Virus record (IMG/VR): IMGVR_UViG_3300035698_011578
Span: 31,477 to 95,476 of that record
Source: a virus
Strand: one strand, 5' to 3'
Length of the DNA stretch: 64,000 nt
The notes under the pieces are model-generated. The model had not been told where the DNA came from, made no database searches, and saw nothing but the letters and a program-made list of their open reading frames with translations. How positions within the stretch are numbered: position 1 is the stretch's first letter; every line of letters starts with the position of its first letter. A program made the position numbers and the translations under genes. This document shows positions 13,634 to 44,908 of the stretch, piece after piece.

Positions 13634-13701
13634 ACTTTATATATTAAAATATCAAAGCGTTAAAATTGAAACGAACCAGTATTTTTCGTTTTAGTTTAGA
13701 G

Positions 13702-13772
13702 AGCAGGATACCTTAATCGAAAAGGCGACTCAATATTGGAAGTATCGTATGTTACCACTACACCAATCCTGC
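13702..13772 (-). tRNA. tRNA-Gly(TCC)
   Basis: Cloverleaf, stem CGATA/TATTG, loop CT-TCC-AA. Confidence 0.85.
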
Positions 13773-13780
13773 ATTTTTTG

Positions 13781-13852
13781 AGCAGTAAGGGAATTATGAT
13801 ATCCCGACCTCGACCTTGGCAAGGTCGCACTCTTCCTCTGAGCTATTACTGC
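13781..13852 (-). tRNA. tRNA-Gly(GCC)
   Basis: Stem CGACC/GGTCG, loop TT-GCC-AA; atypical T loop. Confidence 0.85.
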
Positions 13853-13866
13853 AATTTATTGTGTTA

Positions 13867-13915
13867 TGGCGCAGAGAGGAATCGAACCTCAACACACTCA
13901 CATTTCTTAGTAGAG
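13867..13915 (-). pseudogene. tRNA 3' remnant
   Basis: T-arm GAGG-TTCGATT-CCTC and 3' acceptor strand only; no 5' half found. Confidence 0.45.
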
Positions 13916-13938
13916 AAGTCAAAAAACGAACCCTCTAG

Positions 13939-14014
13939 TGGAAGCGATGGGAATCGAACCCACCAAACAATCTGGTTGCAAACCAAATTCGCCAGCCTTG
14001 GAACATGCGCCCCC
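13939..14014 (-). tRNA. tRNA-Ala(TGC)
   Basis: Loop TT-TGC-AA; G3:U70 pair in acceptor stem. Confidence 0.85.
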
Positions 14015-14024
14015 GTTTTATTAG

Positions 14025-14101
14025 TTGGTGAAGAGGGACTCGAACCCTCATGTGACCAATTACCATTTCAACACGATATAAGCGTGAGTGGATATTCACC
14101 A
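14025..14101 (-). tRNA. Atypical D-armless tRNA-Ile(TAT)-like RNA
   Basis: Acceptor TGGTGAA/TTCACCA, 8-nt linker, CACG-CTTATAT-CGTG, 22-nt extra region, canonical T arm. Confidence 0.65.
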
Positions 14102-14103
14102 AT

Positions 14104-14141
14104 AAAAAAAAGCAGTCACTTTTTGAAAGTGACTGCTTTTT
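14104..14141 (-). terminator. Attenuator terminator of Ile/Ala/Gly tRNA operon
   Basis: GCAGTCACTTT-caa-AAAGTGACTGC followed by T8 on minus strand. Confidence 0.85.
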
Positions 14142-14346: not shown

Positions 14347-15327
14347 TTATCCAAATTTATTTACACTTTTCTTCATAATTTTAAAATAATCTGATATAGT
14401 TTTTTCATAACTTTCCCTCTCTTTGTAATTCTCAACAATATAATTGTAGTTGTCTTTCAATTCTAATACACCGTTAATAACATTATCTATCCTAATACTA
14501 GGAACATTTTTCAAGAAACACATCCTATTAAAATCATTAATCATCACACCATTACCATTAACCAATTCAGGTAATCCACCAGATGATGTGTATAGAATAG
14601 GTAACTTACATTTAACTGCTTGACAAGTTACTTTAGAACCAGCATCTCTAAAAAATGGTGAGATGAATGCATCACACATACTAATAAGATTACACATCTC
14701 TGTCCTATCATCTATATAACCATATTTGATTATATTTTCAGGTAGTTCTTCAATATCACACTCACCTATCAGATAAAATAAATCATTGTCAAATATTTTT
14801 GACATGGCTATAATAGTTGATAAACGTTTACCCTCTCTCTCCCAATTACTACAAGAACTAATCCATTTAAACACCTGATTAGATTCCTTTTTATCCGGAT
14901 TATAATCTTCAGAATTATTTAATATGACAATATCATTATCATATTCTACATCATAAAGTTCTTTAAGTGTGTTCTTTGAATAATTTGATATAAATATAAC
15001 AAAATCTGATTGATAACCGGCATCTATATGTAACTTATTTTTATAATCGAATTCTTTTCTCCAATAAATACCATCCATTCTTTTAACTTTGGGTATATTA
15101 TTCAATTCAGACCACTCTAATACTTCTTTAGAATAAAATGTGTTTGTTATAATAATATCTGCTAATTTGTAATCAGATACACGATTAAACCCATAATTAC
15201 CTGCATACCTACACAAGTCGTGCATTATATCATTTTCTTTAGGCCCGAAAGATTTGACACTATGAAGTGTATTACTTACTCTATTATTTGAGCAATCATA
15301 ATAATTTTTAAGCATTTCTCTTTTCAT
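14347..15327 (-). CDS. Glycosyltransferase (GT-B, family 4-like)
   Basis: DAFISPFFRDAGSKVTCQAV..LPILYTSSGGLPELV C-terminal GT4 pattern. Confidence 0.75.
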   Translation of the reverse strand: MKREMLKNYYDCSNNRVSNTLHSVKSFGPKENDIMHDLCRYAGNYGFNRVSDYKLADIIITNTFYSKEVLEWSELNNIPKVKRMDGIYWRKEFDYKNKLHIDAGYQSDFVIFISNYSKNTLKELYDVEYDNDIVILNNSEDYNPDKKESNQVFKWISSCSNWEREGKRLSTIIAMSKIFDNDLFYLIGECDIEELPENIIKYGYIDDRTEMCNLISMCDAFISPFFRDAGSKVTCQAVKCKLPILYTSSGGLPELVNGNGVMINDFNRMCFLKNVPSIRIDNVINGVLELKDNYNYIVENYKERESYEKTISDYFKIMKKSVNKFG

Positions 15328-16081
15328 TTACCCACCAATCTGTTTTAATTTTCAACATAGTATCATCATCTTCGAAGTGTAATATCCAACCTTCTTTATT
15401 CTCTACATCCTTCTTCAATTCCAATATATCAGTTAATGAGTATGAATATTCATTAACAATTGGAACCTCATCTATATCTTTAATATCTAAGTACTTACCA
15501 GTTTTATTACATCTCAATTTAAGAAGAACCATATCCTCATAATCATACTCAACATATAATTTCTCACCTATTAATTCGAATATTGGTTGTTTATTTTGTA
15601 ATAAGCAAGATTCTATAAATTTATAATATTTAGGATTTTCTAAATATTTATTACCAGAAACATTTGTTTTAGTATAGAATCCCTTTTTTGTCTGTGATGT
15701 AATACTACCATCAGGTAACATGATGAAAGTTAATAAGAAACCATCTAACTTTTCAGTTATATTTTTAATTGGTTTATCTATAAATTTATCCAGTACACAA
15801 TGTTTATATTGATCTAATTCCCAGAATTTGCTTAACATTAAATTTCTACGAAATAAAGAACCATCATCATTAAATGTGAAGGATAGCCCTTTTAGTTCAA
15901 GTGCATTAATATTTGGTTTATCTATAATAGGTAATTTGAAATTATTATAAGTGGCATGTCTATAACCGAATATAGATAAATCATAACTATTTATTATGAA
16001 ATTACTTTCATAGAAATACATCTTAGGATTAGATTCAATTATTTCTAAACATTCTGTATATTCTGGTAGGTAAAAACTCAT
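15308..16081 (-). CDS. RNA ligase, T4 Rnl1-like (short)
   Basis: KFWE, EKLDG (motif I), FEL (III), EGWIL (IV), KIKTDW (V). Confidence 0.8.
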   Translation of the reverse strand: MSFYLPEYTECLEIIESNPKMYFYESNFIINSYDLSIFGYRHATYNNFKLPIIDKPNINALELKGLSFTFNDDGSLFRRNLMLSKFWELDQYKHCVLDKFIDKPIKNITEKLDGFLLTFIMLPDGSITSQTKKGFYTKTNVSGNKYLENPKYYKFIESCLLQNKQPIFELIGEKLYVEYDYEDMVLLKLRCNKTGKYLDIKDIDEVPIVNEYSYSLTDILELKKDVENKEGWILHFEDDDTMLKIKTDWWVNEKRNA

Positions 16082-34799: not shown

Positions 34800-34872
34800 G
34801 GATTAGTAGCTCAGTTGGTAGAGCAATTGTTTGTTAAACAAAAGGTCGCTGGATCGTGCCCAGCCTAGTCCG
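34800..34872 (+). tRNA. tRNA-Asn(GTT)
   Basis: Loop TT-GTT-AA; acceptor GGATTAG/CTAGTCC. Confidence 0.8.
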
Positions 34873-34880
34873 CAACAAAA

Positions 34881-34892
34881 TGTTCTTTGACG
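34881..34892 (+). promoter_or_regulatory. boxA-like antitermination site
   Basis: TGTTCTTTGACG resembles rrn boxA TGCTCTTTAACA. Confidence 0.55.
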
Positions 34893-34916
34893 TATTGGGA
34901 TATAAAAATTAAAAAC

Positions 34917-35003
34917 GATTGTGTTGCCGTAGTTGGTCGAACGGTCCAGACTGTTAATCTGGTGAGTTAAACTCCACCGTAGGTTCGAATCCTACCACAA
35001 TCG
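34917..35003 (+). tRNA. tRNA-Asn(GTT), long variable arm
   Basis: CCAGA-CT-GTT-AA-TCTGG. Confidence 0.85.
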
Positions 35004-35066
35004 CTTAATAAACTTCGTTAATATGAAGTTGTGTAGTTTTAATATATAAAAGAAAATATTAAAATT

Positions 35067-35765
35067 ATGAGTGAATTAAGAAATAAAATAATAGAATTAA
35101 GAATTAATGGTAAAAAATATACAGAAATAAGTGAGATATTAGGATGTTCTAAATCAACGATAAGTTATCACTGTAAACGAAATAAAAAAATAATTTATAT
35201 CGAGAATGTTGATATTGAATCACAGACAGAAATAGTAGAATATCGAGAAATTGGTTTAAGATTAATAGAAATATATGAAAAATTAGAAAAAAGAATAACT
35301 AAAGAAAATATTAAAATAATATGTAGAAAAAATGGATTATCTTATTTAGATAGATTAAATGAAGAAGATATAAATAAGATTCGTGAGAAATATAAAGAAA
35401 TAGGTAAACTTAGAAAAGTTGCCAGAATATTAGGATATAGTTTTAGCACAGTTAAAAAAAATGTTATTGATTTAATTGAAGATTTTAATAAAAATAAGAA
35501 AAATATAAGTAATTCAGAATCTGTTATAAATTGGAGAAAAAGAGTTAAAATAAAATTAGTAGAATATAAGGGAGGGAAATGTGAAAGATGTGGTTATAAT
35601 AAGTACGTGGAAGTCTTAGAATTCCACCATAGAGATGAGTATGAAAAAGATTTTACAATATCAGGTAAATCTTGGTCATATGAAAGATTAAAAAATGAAG
35701 TTGATAAATGCATTATGCTATGTTCAAATTGTCATAAAGAAATGCATATAGAGAATAAAAATTAA
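35067..35765 (+). CDS. HNH homing endonuclease with HTH repeats, inside tRNA array
   Basis: CERCGY...LEFHH...LCSNCHKEMH. Confidence 0.85.
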   Translation: MSELRNKIIELRINGKKYTEISEILGCSKSTISYHCKRNKKIIYIENVDIESQTEIVEYREIGLRLIEIYEKLEKRITKENIKIICRKNGLSYLDRLNEEDINKIREKYKEIGKLRKVARILGYSFSTVKKNVIDLIEDFNKNKKNISNSESVINWRKRVKIKLVEYKGGKCERCGYNKYVEVLEFHHRDEYEKDFTISGKSWSYERLKNEVDKCIMLCSNCHKEMHIENKN

Positions 35766-35771
35766 TAAAAT

Positions 35772-35856
35772 ACCGGGGTGTCGTAATTGGTAGCCGAGAC
35801 AGACTTAAACTCTGTTGATCCTTGTGGTCGTGAGGGTTCAAATCCCTTCCCCGGTA
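35772..35856 (+). tRNA. tRNA-Leu(TAA)
   Basis: ACAGA-CT-TAA-AC-TCTGT, long variable arm. Confidence 0.85.
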
Positions 35857-35864
35857 CAATACAA

Positions 35865-35936
35865 GGTTCCTTCGTCCAACGGATAGGACTTCAGTCTTCT
35901 AAACTGATAATATGGGTTCGAGTCCCGTAGGAATCT
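35865..35936 (+). tRNA. tRNA-Arg(TCT)
   Basis: TCAGT-CT-TCT-AA-ACTGA. Confidence 0.85.
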
Positions 35937-35949
35937 CAAAATATAAAAT

Positions 35950-36030
35950 ACCTCTGTGGCGAAATGGTTCACGCAGCATGTTTAGAACTTGTCTCCGAGA
36001 GGACTGTCGGTTCGACTCCGACCAGAGGTA
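35950..36030 (+). tRNA. tRNA-Leu(TAG)
   Basis: Loop TT-TAG-AA, weak anticodon stem, long variable arm. Confidence 0.7.
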
Positions 36031-36038
36031 CAAAAAAT

Positions 36039-36121
36039 AGGACTATGGTGTAATTGGCAACATCCCACTGTTACATGGTGGAGACGTGAAGTAAATCTCG
36101 GTTCGAGTCCGAGTAGTCCTA
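36039..36121 (+). tRNA. tRNA-Val(TAC), enlarged variable region
   Basis: CCACT-GT-TAC-AT-GGTGG. Confidence 0.8.
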
Positions 36122-36126
36122 CAAAA

Positions 36127-36203
36127 CGGTGTGTATACCCTCCGGCTGATACCCGGTTGAAAGGTTAATTGGTTACACGTAGGTTCAATTCCTACCTCAC
36201 CGA
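36127..36203 (+). tRNA. Atypical D-armless tRNA-Ile(GAT)-like RNA
   Basis: CCGG-CT-GAT-AC-CCGG after an 8-nt linker; same layout as 14025..14101. Confidence 0.7.
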
Positions 36204-36212
36204 CAAAAACAC

Positions 36213-36284
36213 GTACCTGTGACCGAGTGATTTAGGTAGGCGGCTGCAACCCGTCTTACGGGGGTTTGAATCCCTCCAGGTACT
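36213..36284 (+). tRNA. tRNA-Cys(GCA)
   Basis: GGCGG-CT-GCA-AC-CCGTC, U73. Confidence 0.85.
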
Positions 36285-36292
36285 CTAAATTT

Positions 36293-36364
36293 TGGAGATT
36301 AGCTCAGTGGAAGAGTAATTCCTTGACGTGGAATAGGTCAACAGTTCAATTCTGTTATCTCCAA
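36293..36364 (+). tRNA. tRNA-Val(GAC)
   Basis: ATTCC-TT-GAC-GT-GGAAT. Confidence 0.85.
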
Positions 36365-36370
36365 CAAAAT

Positions 36371-36453
36371 GCCTTCTTCGCATAGTGGCTATTGCACCTG
36401 ACTTTAATCAGGCGAGGTAAAACTCATCGTGGGTCCGAGTCCCACAGAAGGCT
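36371..36453 (+). tRNA. tRNA-Thr-like gene with 6-nt anticodon loop
   Basis: CCTGA-CTTTAA-TCAGG; equals CTTGTAA (Thr TGT) minus G; GCC-starting acceptor. Confidence 0.6.
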
Positions 36454-36466
36454 CAAAATTTAATAT

Positions 36467-36535
36467 TGCGAGAGATTCGGCAATCGTCATCGGCTCATAT
36501 CCTTTGACAAGTGGGGTCGGCACCCATTCTCGCAA
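36467..36535 (+). tRNA. Degenerate tRNA-Met(CAT)-like gene
   Basis: Acceptor TGCGAGA/TCTCGCA, loop CT-CAT-AT, reduced D arm. Confidence 0.55.
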
Positions 36536-36542
36536 CAACAAT

Positions 36543-36615
36543 GGCGCTTAAACATTTACTGGATGATGTCTAGTCTTGTAAACTAGGTAAGTGGGATCGT
36601 TACCCTCAAGTGCCT
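36543..36615 (+). tRNA. tRNA-Thr(TGT)
   Basis: CTAGT-CT-TGT-AA-ACTAG. Confidence 0.8.
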
Positions 36616-36622
36616 CAAAAAT

Positions 36623-36693
36623 GCTTTCATAATTCAATGGCAGAATACTAGCTTGGTATGTTAGATATAGCAGTTCGAGTCTGCTTGAAAGCT
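36623..36693 (+). tRNA. tRNA-Thr(GGT)
   Basis: CTAGC-TT-GGT-AT-GTTAG. Confidence 0.85.
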
Positions 36694-36700
36694 CAAAAAT

Positions 36701-36772
36701 GTCGCAGAAGTTCAATGGATGAATAAGGCTCTTCTAAAGCTTTGGTTGTGGGTTCGAGTCCCACCTGTGACT
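36701..36772 (+). tRNA. tRNA-Arg(TCT)
   Basis: AGGCT-CT-TCT-AA-AGCTT. Confidence 0.8.
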
Positions 36773-36780
36773 CTAGATTT

Positions 36781-36862
36781 GCATTGATGGTGGAATTGGT
36801 AGACACGCTGGCCTAAGAAGTCAGTGCCGAGAGGTGTAAGAGTTCGAATCTCTTTCTTTGCA
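36781..36862 (+). tRNA. tRNA-Leu(AAG)
   Basis: CTGGC-CT-AAG-AA-GTCAG, Leu-type D loop and long variable arm. Confidence 0.8.
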
Positions 36863-37249
36863 CAAAAAATAAAAAATTCATCAAATTTATGAAACAAAGC
36901 AGTATGTATTGGATATATACTGTATAAATCATTTGGTTTTGTTAGTTTCGAGTCTTATTTTAGGCTTCCAAATTGTTTAACAGCAATAAAGAAATTCGCA
37001 ATTCAAAAATAAAAATAAATAAAGATGATGAAAAAATGGTCTCTATCCGAGATTTGTGAATATATTAATTTATATAACCCAATCGTAATTTTACTTAGAA
37101 TTCCTATAGATCTTTTTAAATCTAAAAAGATAACTCATCATCATAACTTAATTTTAAACTTTAAGCATGAATATAGTCATGCTATATAAATAATTTTGGT
37201 AATGTTTTTAACTGAGCATTTCAAAAATAAAAATAAAAAATTAATTATT

Positions 37250-44422: not shown

Positions 44423-44493
44423 GGCCTATTGGGGTATGGGTATCCTTTCACACTATCACTGTGAAGAACCGAGTTCGAGTCTCGGATAGGCCG
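44423..44493 (+). tRNA. tRNA-Asp(ATC)
   Basis: TCACA-CT-ATC-AC-TGTGA, G73. Confidence 0.75.
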
Positions 44494-44504
44494 CAAAAAT
44501 ATAA

Positions 44505-44769: not shown

Positions 44770-44852
44770 TGAGAGTTGGTAGAGTGGTCAATTACGGTAG
44801 GTTTTGAACCTACTTTCGAAAGATGTCGTGGGTTCGAATCACACACTCTCAT
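44770..44852 (+). tRNA. tRNA-Gln(TTG), long variable arm
   Basis: GTAGG-TT-TTG-AA-CCTAC. Confidence 0.8.
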
Positions 44853-44908
44853 CAAAGATTTTCCCAATTTTTAAACTTAATATATAATAGAAACAAAGTT
44901 ATTATAAA

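What the first reader, a model, noticed from the sequence alone, without database searches (positions are those of the whole stretch)
14025..14101. Two Ile tRNA-like RNAs share a D-armless, rearranged architecture
This gene (TAT) and 36127..36203 (GAT) both have a normal acceptor and T arm, only 8 nt before the anticodon stem, and a 22-nt extra region TTGAAA(T/G)G(G/T)TAATTGGT(C/T)ACA(C/T) containing a D-loop-like AATTGG. Stems differ but layout is kept, which argues against random decay. Both sit in operons whose leaders hold cognate Ile codons. A UAU anticodon is itself rare in bacteria, which normally use lysidine-modified CAU.
Basis: partly seen in the sequence, partly recalled or inferred. 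Interest (0 to 1): 0.75.

Follow-up and report, generated by a model that had tools for sequence, protein, structure and literature searches.

The report
Rewired non-cloverleaf phage isoleucine tRNAs
Two genes in this huge phage's tRNA clusters are very probably working isoleucine tRNAs whose D-arm is wired in a different strand order around the anticodon arm, members of a large, almost unannotated phage family that breaks the rule that every tRNA used in bacteria is a cloverleaf.

Summary
Window 14025-14101 (-, anticodon UAU) and 36127-36203 (+, GAU) have a normal acceptor stem, anticodon arm and T arm, but no D hairpin. ARAGORN and the Rfam gathering scan miss both.

They are not decayed genes. 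Pattern and covariance-model searches found over 200 phage contigs and cultured phages (Streptomyces Samistivirus, Microbacterium, crAss-like Kehishuvirus, Maribacter) with the same layout, almost always unannotated or misannotated. Only 4 stretches turned up in 185,579 prokaryote genomes, all on MAG contigs; three are 217-400 kb.

A 3-bp helix (positions 11-13 with 37-39) encloses the anticodon hairpin. It pairs in 37 of 37 sequences, and all three pairs show compensatory changes. The 3' strand runs into UAAUUGG, which behaves like A14-R15...G18-G19:
- The R15-like base covaries perfectly with the base before the T stem (A:U 83/83; G:C or G:G 19/19), as a Levitt pair would.
- The base after GG is A in 33 of 34 Arg-anticodon relatives (the ArgRS A20 determinant) and U in most Ile ones.
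- Ile members always have A73.

In a complete 405-kb phage, 39 canonical tRNAs cover every amino acid except Ile. The rewired genes supply Ile(UAU), Ile(GAU) and the missing Arg(UCU).

There are no expression or charging data. I found no paper describing this layout. The scan has found this class before on other phage DNA.

The parts
14025..14101 (-). c1: rewired tRNA-Ile(UAU) gene, 77 nt, no encoded CCA
   Evidence: Sequence. R1 94.7 bits. Independent model R2 40.9 bits. RF00005 29.8 bits. Missed by ARAGORN.
14095..14101 (-). c1 acceptor stem, 5' strand (RNA 1-7), pairs with 14026-14032
   Evidence: 7/7 pairs. All seven acceptor pairs covary in the family.
14089..14091 (-). c1 long-range helix, 5' strand (RNA 11-13, CCA). 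Equivalent to D-stem strand 23-25.
   Evidence: Pairs with UGG at 14063-14065. c2 has ACC/GGU at the same columns. 100% paired in 37 sequences and all 3 pairs compensatory.
14071..14087 (-). c1 anticodon arm (RNA 15-31). Anticodon UAU at 14078-14080.
   Evidence: U.U plus 4 Watson-Crick pairs, and loop C-U-UAU-A-U with U33 and A37.
14063..14065 (-). c1 long-range helix, 3' strand (RNA 37-39, UGG). Equivalent to D-stem strand 10-12.
14053..14062 (-). c1 D-loop-like segment UAAUUGGUCA (RNA 40-49). Proposed A14, A15, G18, G19, U20, A21.
   Evidence: Invariant in the family, partly because the search pattern fixed it. The 15:48-like covariation and the isotype-specific base after GG support the assignment.
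14033..14049 (-). c1 T arm (RNA 53-69), GAGGG-UUCGAGU-CCCUC
   Evidence: Canonical T loop. 4 of 5 stem pairs covary in the family.
36127..36203 (+). c2: rewired tRNA-Ile(GAU) gene, 77 nt, no encoded CCA. It fills a tRNA-sized slot between tRNA-Val (ends 36122) and tRNA-Cys (starts 36213).
   Evidence: R1 94.7 bits. R2 29.0 bits.
36137..36139 (+). c2 long-range helix, 5' strand (ACC)
   Evidence: Pairs with GGU at 36163-36165.
36141..36157 (+). c2 anticodon arm. Anticodon GAU at 36148-36150.
36163..36165 (+). c2 long-range helix, 3' strand (GGU)
36166..36175 (+). c2 D-loop-like segment UAAUUGGUUA
36179..36195 (+). c2 T arm, GUAGG-UUCAAUU-CCUAC
13701..14101 (-). tRNA cluster headed by c1: c1, an Ala-like tRNA, an odd T-arm fragment, one tRNA seen only by Rfam, and tRNA-Gly
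34800..36863 (+). tRNA array that contains c2: 13 ARAGORN tRNAs plus an HTH-HNH endonuclease ORF at 35067-35765
14107..14141 (.). Bidirectional terminator-like hairpin, 16 pairs, 5 nt upstream of c1

Best explanation
c1 and c2 are functional elongator tRNA-Ile genes of a huge, AT-rich phage from salt-lake metagenomes. c1 (UAU) would read AUA. c2 (GAU) would read AUU and AUC. They belong to a phage-borne superfamily of Ile and Arg tRNAs whose core is topologically rewired. The strand that normally forms the 5' half of the D-stem, together with the D-loop, lies 3' of the anticodon arm instead of 5' of it. As a result the D-stem equivalent is a long-range 3-bp helix (plus a U.U or A:U layer) whose strands run straight into the anticodon stem. 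Together they give roughly the ten stacked layers of the normal anticodon/D domain. The helix's 3' strand then runs into UAAUUGG, which I read as A14, R15, G18 and G19, docking on an unchanged T loop to form the elbow. The base before the T stem would close a 15:48 Levitt-type pair. I infer the rest of the pathway. The genes would be transcribed with their arrays and cut out by RNase P and the 3' processing enzymes. A CCA-adding enzyme would add CCA, which is not encoded in c1 or c2. Host IleRS would charge them through the anticodon, A37 and A73, and the ribosome would use them. The family, its helices, the tertiary covariation, the isotype-specific nucleotides, the array context and the gap-filling are shown computationally. 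Expression, the fold, charging and decoding are inferred. Why the rewired form persists is speculation: escape from tRNA-targeting nucleases, or simply a frozen rearrangement.
For: (1) It is a real family. The search motif left the 3-nt helix columns free and found 35 distinct members in viral contigs. Members outside the model score 92-97 bits.
(2) Structure. The acceptor, anticodon and T stems and the 11-13:37-39 helix are 96.6% paired. 17 of 19 pairs show double changes, against 37-47% pairing when the partners are slid by 1-3 columns. The long-range helix is 100% paired, with pair types CG/AU/UA, CG/UA/GC/AU and CG/GC/AU/UG. The same helix holds in 28 Arg-type relatives: 89% paired, 2 of 3 pairs compensatory.
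(3) Tertiary mapping. With both positions left free in parallel scans, UAA goes with U before the T stem in 83 of 83 sequences. UAG goes with C (13) or G (6) and never U (Fisher 5e-21). Both states occur in Ile and in Arg lineages.
(4) Identity elements. The base after GG is A in 33 of 34 Arg members and in 2 of 34 Ile members (p 1.4e-15, not corrected for phylogeny). A20 is the established ArgRS determinant. The discriminator is A in 34 of 34 Ile B-type members and in 37 of 37 family-A members. The two A-type Arg genes of Mildred21 also have A after GG.
(5) Anticodons are confined to the Ile box (GAU, UAU, CAU) and the Arg boxes (UCU, UCG, ACG, CCU), with three exceptions, and U33 and R37 are kept.
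(6) Context. Most of the 63 A-type members lie within about 250 nt of canonical tRNAs (a few as far as about 940 nt; one locus had no ARAGORN tRNA). c2 fills a tRNA-sized slot.
(7) Gap-filling. Complete phage G003 has 39 canonical tRNAs for 19 amino acids, no Ile and no Arg(UCU). Its rewired genes are Ile(UAU), Ile(GAU) and Arg(UCU). G002 (96% complete) also lacks canonical Ile and carries a rewired GAU. The window has 25 canonical tRNAs and none for Ile, although Ile takes 88 of every 1000 codons and ATA 39.
(8) 28 of 70 B-type members encode CCA right after the discriminator, against 1.6% expected by chance.
(9) E. coli HisRS, EF-Tu and the ribosome accept even a tRNA with no D-arm at all (PMC11551756).
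Against: There is no RNA evidence of any kind, and no RNA run holding the locus was listed. The 3D fold is argued from sequence only. The members were collected with sequence patterns, so the invariance of UUGAAA and UAAUUGG is partly by construction, and the association statistics are not corrected for phylogeny. Gap-filling is not universal: Mildred21 and G001 also carry canonical Ile tRNAs with the same anticodon as their rewired one. Some canonical 'Met(CAU)' genes could be lysidine-type Ile tRNAs, so 'no canonical Ile' is strict only for AUU/AUC. c2 has a U.U mismatch in the acceptor stem, and 8 of 15 GAU members have pyrimidine mismatches at 5:68 or 6:67. An unmodified UAU anticodon could misread AUG.
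Confidence: 0.8

Rival explanations
1. The RNAs are made but are not used in translation. They would act as tRNA-like decoys or regulators, for example as sponges for a host tRNA-targeting nuclease or for a modification enzyme such as TilS.
For: They differ from canonical tRNAs exactly where many enzymes make contact, the D-arm. Several phages keep a canonical Ile tRNA with the same anticodon next to the rewired one. Phage tRNAs are known to counter tRNA-cleaving defences (PMC10264068 and PMC11464382, listed). An RNA-ligase-like ORF lies near c1.
Against: A decoy would not need a full set of isoacceptors (GAU, UAU, CAU; UCU, UCG, ACG, CCU), synthetase determinants kept at equivalent positions (A20-like for Arg, A73 for Ile), an encoded CCA, or to be the only source of Ile decoders in otherwise complete tRNA sets.
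Confidence: 0.1
2. They are functional tRNAs, but truly D-armless, like mitochondrial tRNA-Ser(AGY). The 22-nt region would form its own hairpin in the variable position, and the molecule would be a flexible Y or boomerang shape with no long-range helix.
For: A stem U32-G33-A34 with U47-Y48-A49 can be drawn. Some divergent GAU relatives can form a 4-bp hairpin there: L084:4553-4629 with CUCA/UGAG and L096:1501-1579 with ACCA/UGGU. An earlier first-reader note, e1-5983142, drew it this way.
Against: The hairpin shows no compensatory change, and 3 of 37 sequences have G.G or G.A in its middle pair. The 11-13:37-39 helix, by contrast, has three covarying pairs and is 100% paired, and it recurs in Arg relatives. 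The conserved GG, the canonical T loop and the 15:48-like covariation point to a normal elbow, which D-armless mitochondrial tRNAs lack.
Confidence: 0.06
3. The genes are precursors that are rearranged at the RNA level into an ordinary cloverleaf, by cutting and religation as with the permuted tRNA genes of red algae.
For: The segment order looks like a transposition of two blocks. RNA-ligase-like genes occur in the window and in Mildred21, which has an RNA ligase and a polynucleotide kinase.
Against: The 5' and 3' acceptor strands are already in normal order, so no circular intermediate is needed. I saw no bulge-helix-bulge motif. The long-range helix, which covaries, would serve no purpose in a molecule destined for re-cutting. 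No such pathway is known in bacteria (my own knowledge).
Confidence: 0.02
4. They are decaying tRNA pseudogenes or chance look-alikes.
For: Gene finders reject them.
Against: There are hundreds of homologues with compensatory changes in every stem.
Confidence: 0.01

Closest known systems
Canonical class I bacterial and phage tRNA-Ile and tRNA-Arg (Rfam RF00005). An example is the cloverleaf tRNA-Ile(GAU) of Streptomyces phage Mildred21 at NC_042008 90283-90358.
   Same: 7-bp acceptor stem, 7-nt anticodon loop with U33 and A37, GUUCRANNC T loop, A73 for Ile, an A20-like base for Arg, a 15:48-like pair, a GG that can dock on the T loop, a length of 77-80 nt, and a position inside tRNA arrays.
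   Different: There is no D hairpin between positions 10 and 25. The D-stem equivalent is formed by strands lying 5' and 3' of the anticodon arm. The D-loop motif lies where the variable region normally is. ARAGORN misses them, and RF00005 scores them at or below its threshold.
D-arm-lacking mitochondrial tRNAs (mammalian mt-tRNA-Ser(AGY), nematode mt-tRNAs) and the engineered mini HisT of E. coli (PMC11551756)
   Same: [quoted passage not shown] Mini HisT shows that bacterial translation tolerates departures from the cloverleaf.
   Different: Those molecules have lost the D-stem and the D-loop/T-loop contact and are short and flexible. Here the D-stem and D-loop equivalents are kept and relocated, the T loop is canonical, the length is normal, and the genes are natural and phage-encoded.
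Circularly permuted tRNA genes of Cyanidioschyzon merolae
   Same: The gene order of tRNA segments differs from the textbook order.
   Different: In those genes the 3' half precedes the 5' half and the mature tRNA is an ordinary cloverleaf after processing. Here the ends are normal and the internal order itself is changed in what I predict to be the mature RNA.
allo-tRNAs and 8/4 or 9/3 tRNAs (Mukai et al., PMC5389517)
   Same: Non-standard tRNAs found by mining metagenomes and phages.
   Different: Those are still four-arm cloverleaves with altered stem lengths. The paper does not describe this layout.

Membership tests
tRNA (Rfam RF00005, canonical cloverleaf) | 7-bp acceptor stem closing the molecule, with an unpaired discriminator | tested here: met
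   c1 pairs 7/7. c2 pairs 6/7. All 7 pairs covary in the family.
tRNA (Rfam RF00005, canonical cloverleaf) | Anticodon arm with a 7-nt loop, U33 and purine 37 | tested here: met
   Loops CUUAUAU and CUGAUAC. The stem has 4 Watson-Crick pairs plus a conserved U.U.
tRNA (Rfam RF00005, canonical cloverleaf) | T arm with a 5-bp stem and a UUCRANY loop | tested here: met
   (98.4% paired).
tRNA (Rfam RF00005, canonical cloverleaf) | [quoted passage not shown] | tested here: not met
   [quoted passage not shown] ARAGORN makes no call.
tRNA (Rfam RF00005, canonical cloverleaf) | Score at or above the family's gathering threshold (29 bits) | tested here: inconclusive
   c1 scores 29.8 bits but is absent from the cmscan runs. 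c2 is never reported. Family-A relatives score 21.6 and 27.8 bits.
Functional elongator tRNA (by activity) | Expressed, end-processed, carrying CCA, aminoacylated and used on the ribosome | not testable with these tools
   No RNA holder was listed. The indirect support is identity elements, gap-filling and encoded CCA in relatives.
Rewired phage Ile/Arg tRNA superfamily (defined here by models R1 and R2) | A long-range 3-bp helix enclosing the anticodon arm, with its 3' strand followed directly by UAR-YUGG, then a canonical T arm | tested here: met
   c1 has CCA/UGG and c2 has ACC/GGU. R1 gives 94.7 bits to each, though both are in that model. The independent model R2 gives 40.9 and 29.0 bits.
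D-arm-lacking mitochondrial-type tRNA | Loss of the D-stem and of the G18G19/T-loop contact, with a degenerate T loop | tested here: not met
   A covarying D-stem equivalent, an invariant GG and a canonical T loop are all present.
Permuted tRNA gene (red-alga type) | 3' half encoded upstream of the 5' half, with the acceptor ends internal to the gene | tested here: not met
   The acceptor strands are at the two ends of the gene, in normal order.

The most novel reading that the evidence does not exclude
These would be the first natural non-cloverleaf tRNAs to work in bacterial cytosolic translation: a phage-specific class for Ile and Arg that reaches the L shape through a different chain topology. 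Phages would keep it because the re-threaded core makes the tRNAs invisible to host or rival-phage enzymes that recognise the canonical D-arm, such as tRNA-cleaving defence nucleases or decay pathways. That would make them naturally orthogonal adaptors.
Probability: 0.25. Interest if true: 0.95.

Novelty: new variant of a known kind. Interest (0 to 1): 0.85.

Why it matters
[quoted passage not shown] A large natural family that keeps the tertiary contacts but threads the chain differently would have several consequences.
- It would show that the L shape, not the cloverleaf connectivity, is what translation selects for.
- It would expose a systematic blind spot in tRNA gene finders. Phage tRNA complements, codon-usage arguments and genetic-code predictions are all affected. 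In the cultured phage Mildred21, one member is annotated as tRNA-Phe, one as tRNA-OTHER, and two are not annotated at all.
- It would give testable material on how IleRS, ArgRS, RNase P, EF-Tu and modification enzymes read the tRNA core.
- It would offer natural scaffolds for orthogonal tRNA engineering.
- It may bear on the arms race around tRNA-targeting antiphage systems.
Cultured hosts and phages exist (Streptomyces, Bacteroides cellulosilyticus, Maribacter), so the question can be tested directly.

Tried and rejected
- RNA evidence: one search for sequencing runs listed 14 DNA-type holders, mostly labelled salt lake metagenome, and no RNA holder. I did not use read laying, because DNA contigs cannot show expression.
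- Minimum-free-energy folding of single sequences was uninformative (z -1.3 and -0.6).
- The alternative hairpin 32-34:47-49 was tested and is not supported.
- One viral scan was wasted on a pattern with one N too many before GTTC.
- Literature: eight full-text searches and three papers read found no description of this layout. The library lacks most subscription journals, so this is absence in what I could search.
- Cellular genomes: the family-A motif gave only 4 stretches.
- BLAST of a B1 Ile member against cultured phages gave only partial hits.
- Neither R1 nor R2 found further rewired genes in the window.
- I looked for a canonical reading of the T-arm fragment at 13866-13937(-) and found none.

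Full report
WHAT IS THERE. The window is the 3' two-thirds of a 95.5-kb IMG/VR virus record. CheckV rates it 13% complete, so it is a fragment of a huge phage. It has 28% GC, and its nearest DNA match is a 635-kb uncultured phage. The runs that hold it are mostly labelled salt lake metagenome. ARAGORN finds 25 tRNAs, in clusters, and none is for isoleucine.

The two reported elements are at the stated coordinates. c1 is 14025-14101(-), with anticodon loop CUUAUAU. c2 is 36127-36203(+), with loop CUGAUAC. Both are 77 nt and have the same layout:
- an acceptor stem of 7 bp;
- UAU;
- three variable bases and a C;
- an anticodon arm of one U.U layer plus four Watson-Crick pairs and a 7-nt loop;
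- UGAAA;
- three variable bases;
- UAAUUGGU-Y-ACA-Y;
- a standard T arm;
- the acceptor 3' strand;
- discriminator A.
ARAGORN misses both, and so does Rfam's gathering scan. RF00005 gives c1 a borderline 29.8 bits in another run.

IT IS A FAMILY, NOT DECAY. I scanned the viral contig collection with the 17-base motif, leaving the three variable bases free. It hit 83 stretches. The hits that were tRNA-like collapsed to 35 distinct 77-nt sequences with the same layout and anticodons GAU, UAU or CAU, plus one UAC.

On the ungapped 37-sequence alignment A2, my proposed structure pairs 96.6% of cells. It pairs only 37-47% when the 3' partners are slid by 1 to 3 columns. 17 of the 19 pairs show changes on both sides.

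The key element is a 3-bp helix between positions 11-13 and 37-39. It pairs in all 37 sequences, and every pair has compensatory variants (CG/AU/UA; CG/UA/GC/AU; CG/GC/AU/UG). c1 has CCA/UGG there and c2 has ACC/GGU. The rival drawing, in which the 22-nt region forms its own hairpin (32-34:47-49), shows no compensatory change and has three mismatches.

Model R1 then found members that had not been used to build it, at 92-97 bits.

WHERE THE FAMILY LIVES. Among cultured phages it occurs in four groups:
- 77 Streptomyces phages (Samistivirus, for example Mildred21);
- two Microbacterium phages;
- the crAss-like Kehishuvirus 'tikkala' of Bacteroides cellulosilyticus;
- Maribacter phage Panino (an Arg type).
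The gene always sits in or beside a tRNA array. It is either unannotated or wrongly annotated. In Kehishuvirus it fills a 90-nt gap between tRNA-Trp and tRNA-Met.

The same motif, extended by four T-arm bases, hit only 4 stretches in one genome from each of 185,579 prokaryote species. All four are MAG contigs: three of 217-400 kb and one of 25 kb. One has exactly the length of an IMG/VR phage contig, so these are probably misbinned phages.

THE CLASS IS WIDER THAN ILE. Weaker R1 hits led to a second form, the 'B' form. In it the helix's 3' strand and UAAYUGG are followed by 0-4 nt, then UUGAAAAU and the T arm. Three further scans gave about 100 distinct members.

Among the 70 clean B-type members, the anticodons are Arg UCU (20), ACG (10), UCG (3) and CCU (1), and Ile GAU (24), UAU (8) and CAU (2). 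There is also one CUU and one UGU. ARAGORN called none of those I checked.

In 28 aligned Arg members, the helix that encloses the anticodon arm is again supported. It is 89% paired, two of its three pairs are compensatory, and the recurrent exception is A.C.

Mildred21 alone has four rewired genes:
- Ile GAU at 73703-73779, unannotated;
- Arg UCU at 86379-86453, annotated 'tRNA-OTHER';
- Arg UCG at 91367-91442, annotated tRNA-Phe(gaa);
- Arg ACG at 94857-94933, unannotated.

Model R2 was built only from Arg B-type sequences. It still detects c1 (40.9 bits) and c2 (29.0 bits) and nothing else that is new in the window.

HOW IT PROBABLY FOLDS (inference, with two sequence tests). In a normal tRNA the D-stem stacks on the anticodon stem, giving about ten layers. 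In this family the same stack can be built from one long hairpin:
- four Watson-Crick pairs;
- the U15.U31 layer, equivalent to 27:43;
- possibly C14:G33, equivalent to 26:44;
- an AAA bulge;
- the three covarying pairs;
- U10.U40, which is A:U in three members.

The 5' strand of the helix therefore takes the place of D-stem strand 22-25, and the 3' strand takes the place of 10-13. In family A the pair next to the anticodon stem is C13:G37 in 29 of 37 sequences, matching the usual C25:G10. After the 3' strand the chain continues as UAAUUGGUYA, which reads as A14, A15, U16, U17, G18, G19, U20 ... A21. Three more bases then lead into the T stem.

In other words, block [10-21] and block [22-44] have swapped order.

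Test 1 concerns the Levitt pair. If the second purine of UAR is position 15, the base before the T stem should behave as position 48. I ran two parallel scans that fixed A or G at the first site and left the second free. They gave A with U in 83 of 83 sequences. They gave G with C in 13 and with G in 6, and never with U (Fisher 5e-21). Both states occur within the Ile and the Arg lineages. A15:U48, G15:C48 and G15:G48 are the Levitt pairs known from canonical tRNAs (my own knowledge). In family A the same site is U in 34 sequences and C in 3, always with A at position 42. The one UAG variant I saw has G.

Test 2 concerns position 20. If GG is G18G19, the next base is position 20, and A20 is the major ArgRS identity element in E. 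coli (established knowledge). That base is A in 33 of 34 Arg-anticodon members and in 2 of 34 Ile members (p 1.4e-15, not corrected for phylogeny). It is also A in both A-type Arg genes of Mildred21.

EVIDENCE THAT THEY WORK AS tRNAs.
- Ile members have A73 without exception: 37 of 37 in family A and 34 of 34 in the B form.
- 28 of 70 B-type genes encode CCA directly after the discriminator, against 1.6% expected by chance. Family A mostly does not (3 of 37), and c1 and c2 do not.
- Most of the 63 A-type genes lie within about 250 nt of canonical tRNAs, and a few are as far as about 940 nt. c2 is separated from its neighbours by 4 nt and 9 nt, like the other genes in its array.
- The strongest test is the complement of complete genomes. 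G003 (405 kb, terminal repeats, 100% complete) has 39 canonical tRNAs for 19 amino acids plus a CUA suppressor. Isoleucine is the only amino acid missing, and canonical Arg lacks UCU. Its three rewired genes are Ile UAU, Ile GAU and Arg UCU.
- G002 (429 kb, 96% complete) has 26 canonical tRNAs, none for Ile, and a rewired Ile GAU.
- Kehishuvirus has a canonical Ile UAU and a rewired GAU.
- In the window itself, Ile takes 88 of every 1000 codons in long ORFs (ATT 39, ATA 39, ATC 10). The only Ile decoders found are c1 and c2.

There are counter-examples. G001 and Mildred21 carry canonical Ile tRNAs with the same anticodon as their rewired one. These arrays are redundant for other isotypes as well.

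SURROUNDINGS. c1 heads a minus-strand tRNA run (13701-14101) and lies 5 nt downstream of a 16-bp bidirectional terminator-like hairpin. Upstream on the same strand are three ORFs:
- a glycosyltransferase-like ORF;
- an ORF with weak RNA-ligase hits, below Pfam's cut-offs;
- a weak topoisomerase-like ORF.
c2 lies in a plus-strand array (34800-36863) that also holds an HTH-HNH endonuclease ORF. I found no evidence for leader peptides.

WHAT IS NOT SHOWN. Transcription, processing, CCA addition, charging, decoding and the 3D fold are not shown. The collecting patterns fix much of the D-loop-like region. The statistics treat related sequences as independent. Canonical Met(CAU) genes might include lysidine-type Ile tRNAs.

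KNOWN OR NEW. I found no description in eight full-text searches or in the reviews of non-canonical tRNAs. A 2024 paper states that all known bacterial tRNAs are cloverleaves. It also shows that E. coli HisRS, EF-Tu and the ribosome accept a tRNA with no D-arm (PMC11551756), which makes function plausible here.

The scan itself has met this class before on other phage DNA. Eight earlier follow-up notes reached the same reading, and I read them only after reaching mine. They are AI notes and I do not count them as evidence.

VERDICT. Best explanation, at 0.8: these are working Ile tRNAs of a rewired, phage-specific Ile/Arg tRNA class. The class is a new variant of a known kind, of high interest, and directly testable in cultured phage-host pairs.

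Noticed in passing
window 13938-14014 (-): An Ala(UGC) tRNA with G3:U70 and two G.U pairs in the acceptor stem, but an irregular D region (3-bp stem TTC/GAA, 4 nt after the acceptor stem). ARAGORN calls it. Rfam RF00005 does not, even at E 10.
   Followed up: partly
window 13866-13937 (-): A good T arm followed by ...CUGCGCCA, with no matching 5' acceptor strand within 80 nt. There is a weak hit to permuted tmRNA (15.8 bits). It could be a tRNA 3' fragment, a split gene or something else. Unexplained.
   Followed up: partly
window 34917-35004, 36039-36122, 36371-36454, 44770-44853, 36781-36863, 44423-44494: Other odd tRNAs in the same arrays. Asn (88 nt), Val (84 nt) and Gln (84 nt) have long variable regions, although these isotypes are normally short-armed. 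One 84-nt tRNA has a 2-base 'anticodon' call. Leu(AAG) and Asp(AUC) have A34.
   Followed up: no
window 15308-16081 (-): An ORF with weak RNA-ligase hits (RNA_lig_T4_1 26.8 bits, RNA_ligase 23.5 bits, both below the cut-offs), 1.2 kb upstream of the c1 tRNA cluster. It may be a tRNA-repair function.
   Followed up: no
window 35067-35765 (+): An HTH-HNH endonuclease ORF inside the tRNA array. Its DNA is 68-72% identical to HNH endonuclease genes of Yersinia, Aeromonas, Hafnia and Lak phages. It is a likely homing element that could move tRNA blocks between phages.
   Followed up: no
window 14107-14141: A perfect 16-bp bidirectional terminator-like hairpin, only 5 nt upstream of c1. The cluster's promoter must therefore lie upstream of the hairpin, or transcription must read through it.
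   Followed up: no
L193 (Streptomyces phage Mildred21, NC_042008): 73703-73779, 86379-86453, 91367-91442, 94857-94933: Four rewired tRNAs in a cultured phage. Ile GAU and Arg ACG are unannotated. Arg UCG is annotated as tRNA-Phe(gaa). Arg UCU is annotated as tRNA-OTHER. The only annotated tRNA-Arg in the 44-kb tRNA region examined is CCU. A tRNA nucleotidyltransferase gene ends 14 nt before the rewired Ile gene.
   Followed up: yes
PP540027.1 28066-28145 (Maribacter phage Panino): A rewired Arg(UCU)-type tRNA, 90% identical to L109, lies under a CDS annotated 'hypothetical protein'.
   Followed up: no
alignment A2, acceptor pairs 5:68 and 6:67 (c2: U6.U67, window 36132 and 36197): 8 of 15 GAU members of family A, but only 2 of 15 UAU members, have pyrimidine-pyrimidine mismatches at acceptor pairs 5:68 and/or 6:67. 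This is a recurrent feature rather than an error.
   Followed up: partly
L084-L087 (GTDB MAG contigs JANQLV010000051, CADBGE010000001, CALIAG010000499, JBAZIW010000001): The only 'cellular' hits are on MAG contigs, three of them 217-400 kb, carrying dense tRNA arrays. The 'Paceibacterota' contig has exactly the length (362,763 bp) of IMG/VR phage contig 3300029288_000055. These are probably huge phages binned as bacteria.
   Followed up: partly
G001, G002, G003 (L194-L205): All three huge phages carry a CUA-anticodon tRNA (ARAGORN calls it 'Pyl'), which suggests TAG suppression or recoding. In the window itself, long ORFs end in TAA 42 times, TAG 3 times and TGA 2 times.
   Followed up: no
L065:10637-10713 (-): One family-A member has anticodon loop UUUACAU (UAC, Val) instead of an Ile anticodon. 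This may be an identity switch within the rewired scaffold.
   Followed up: no
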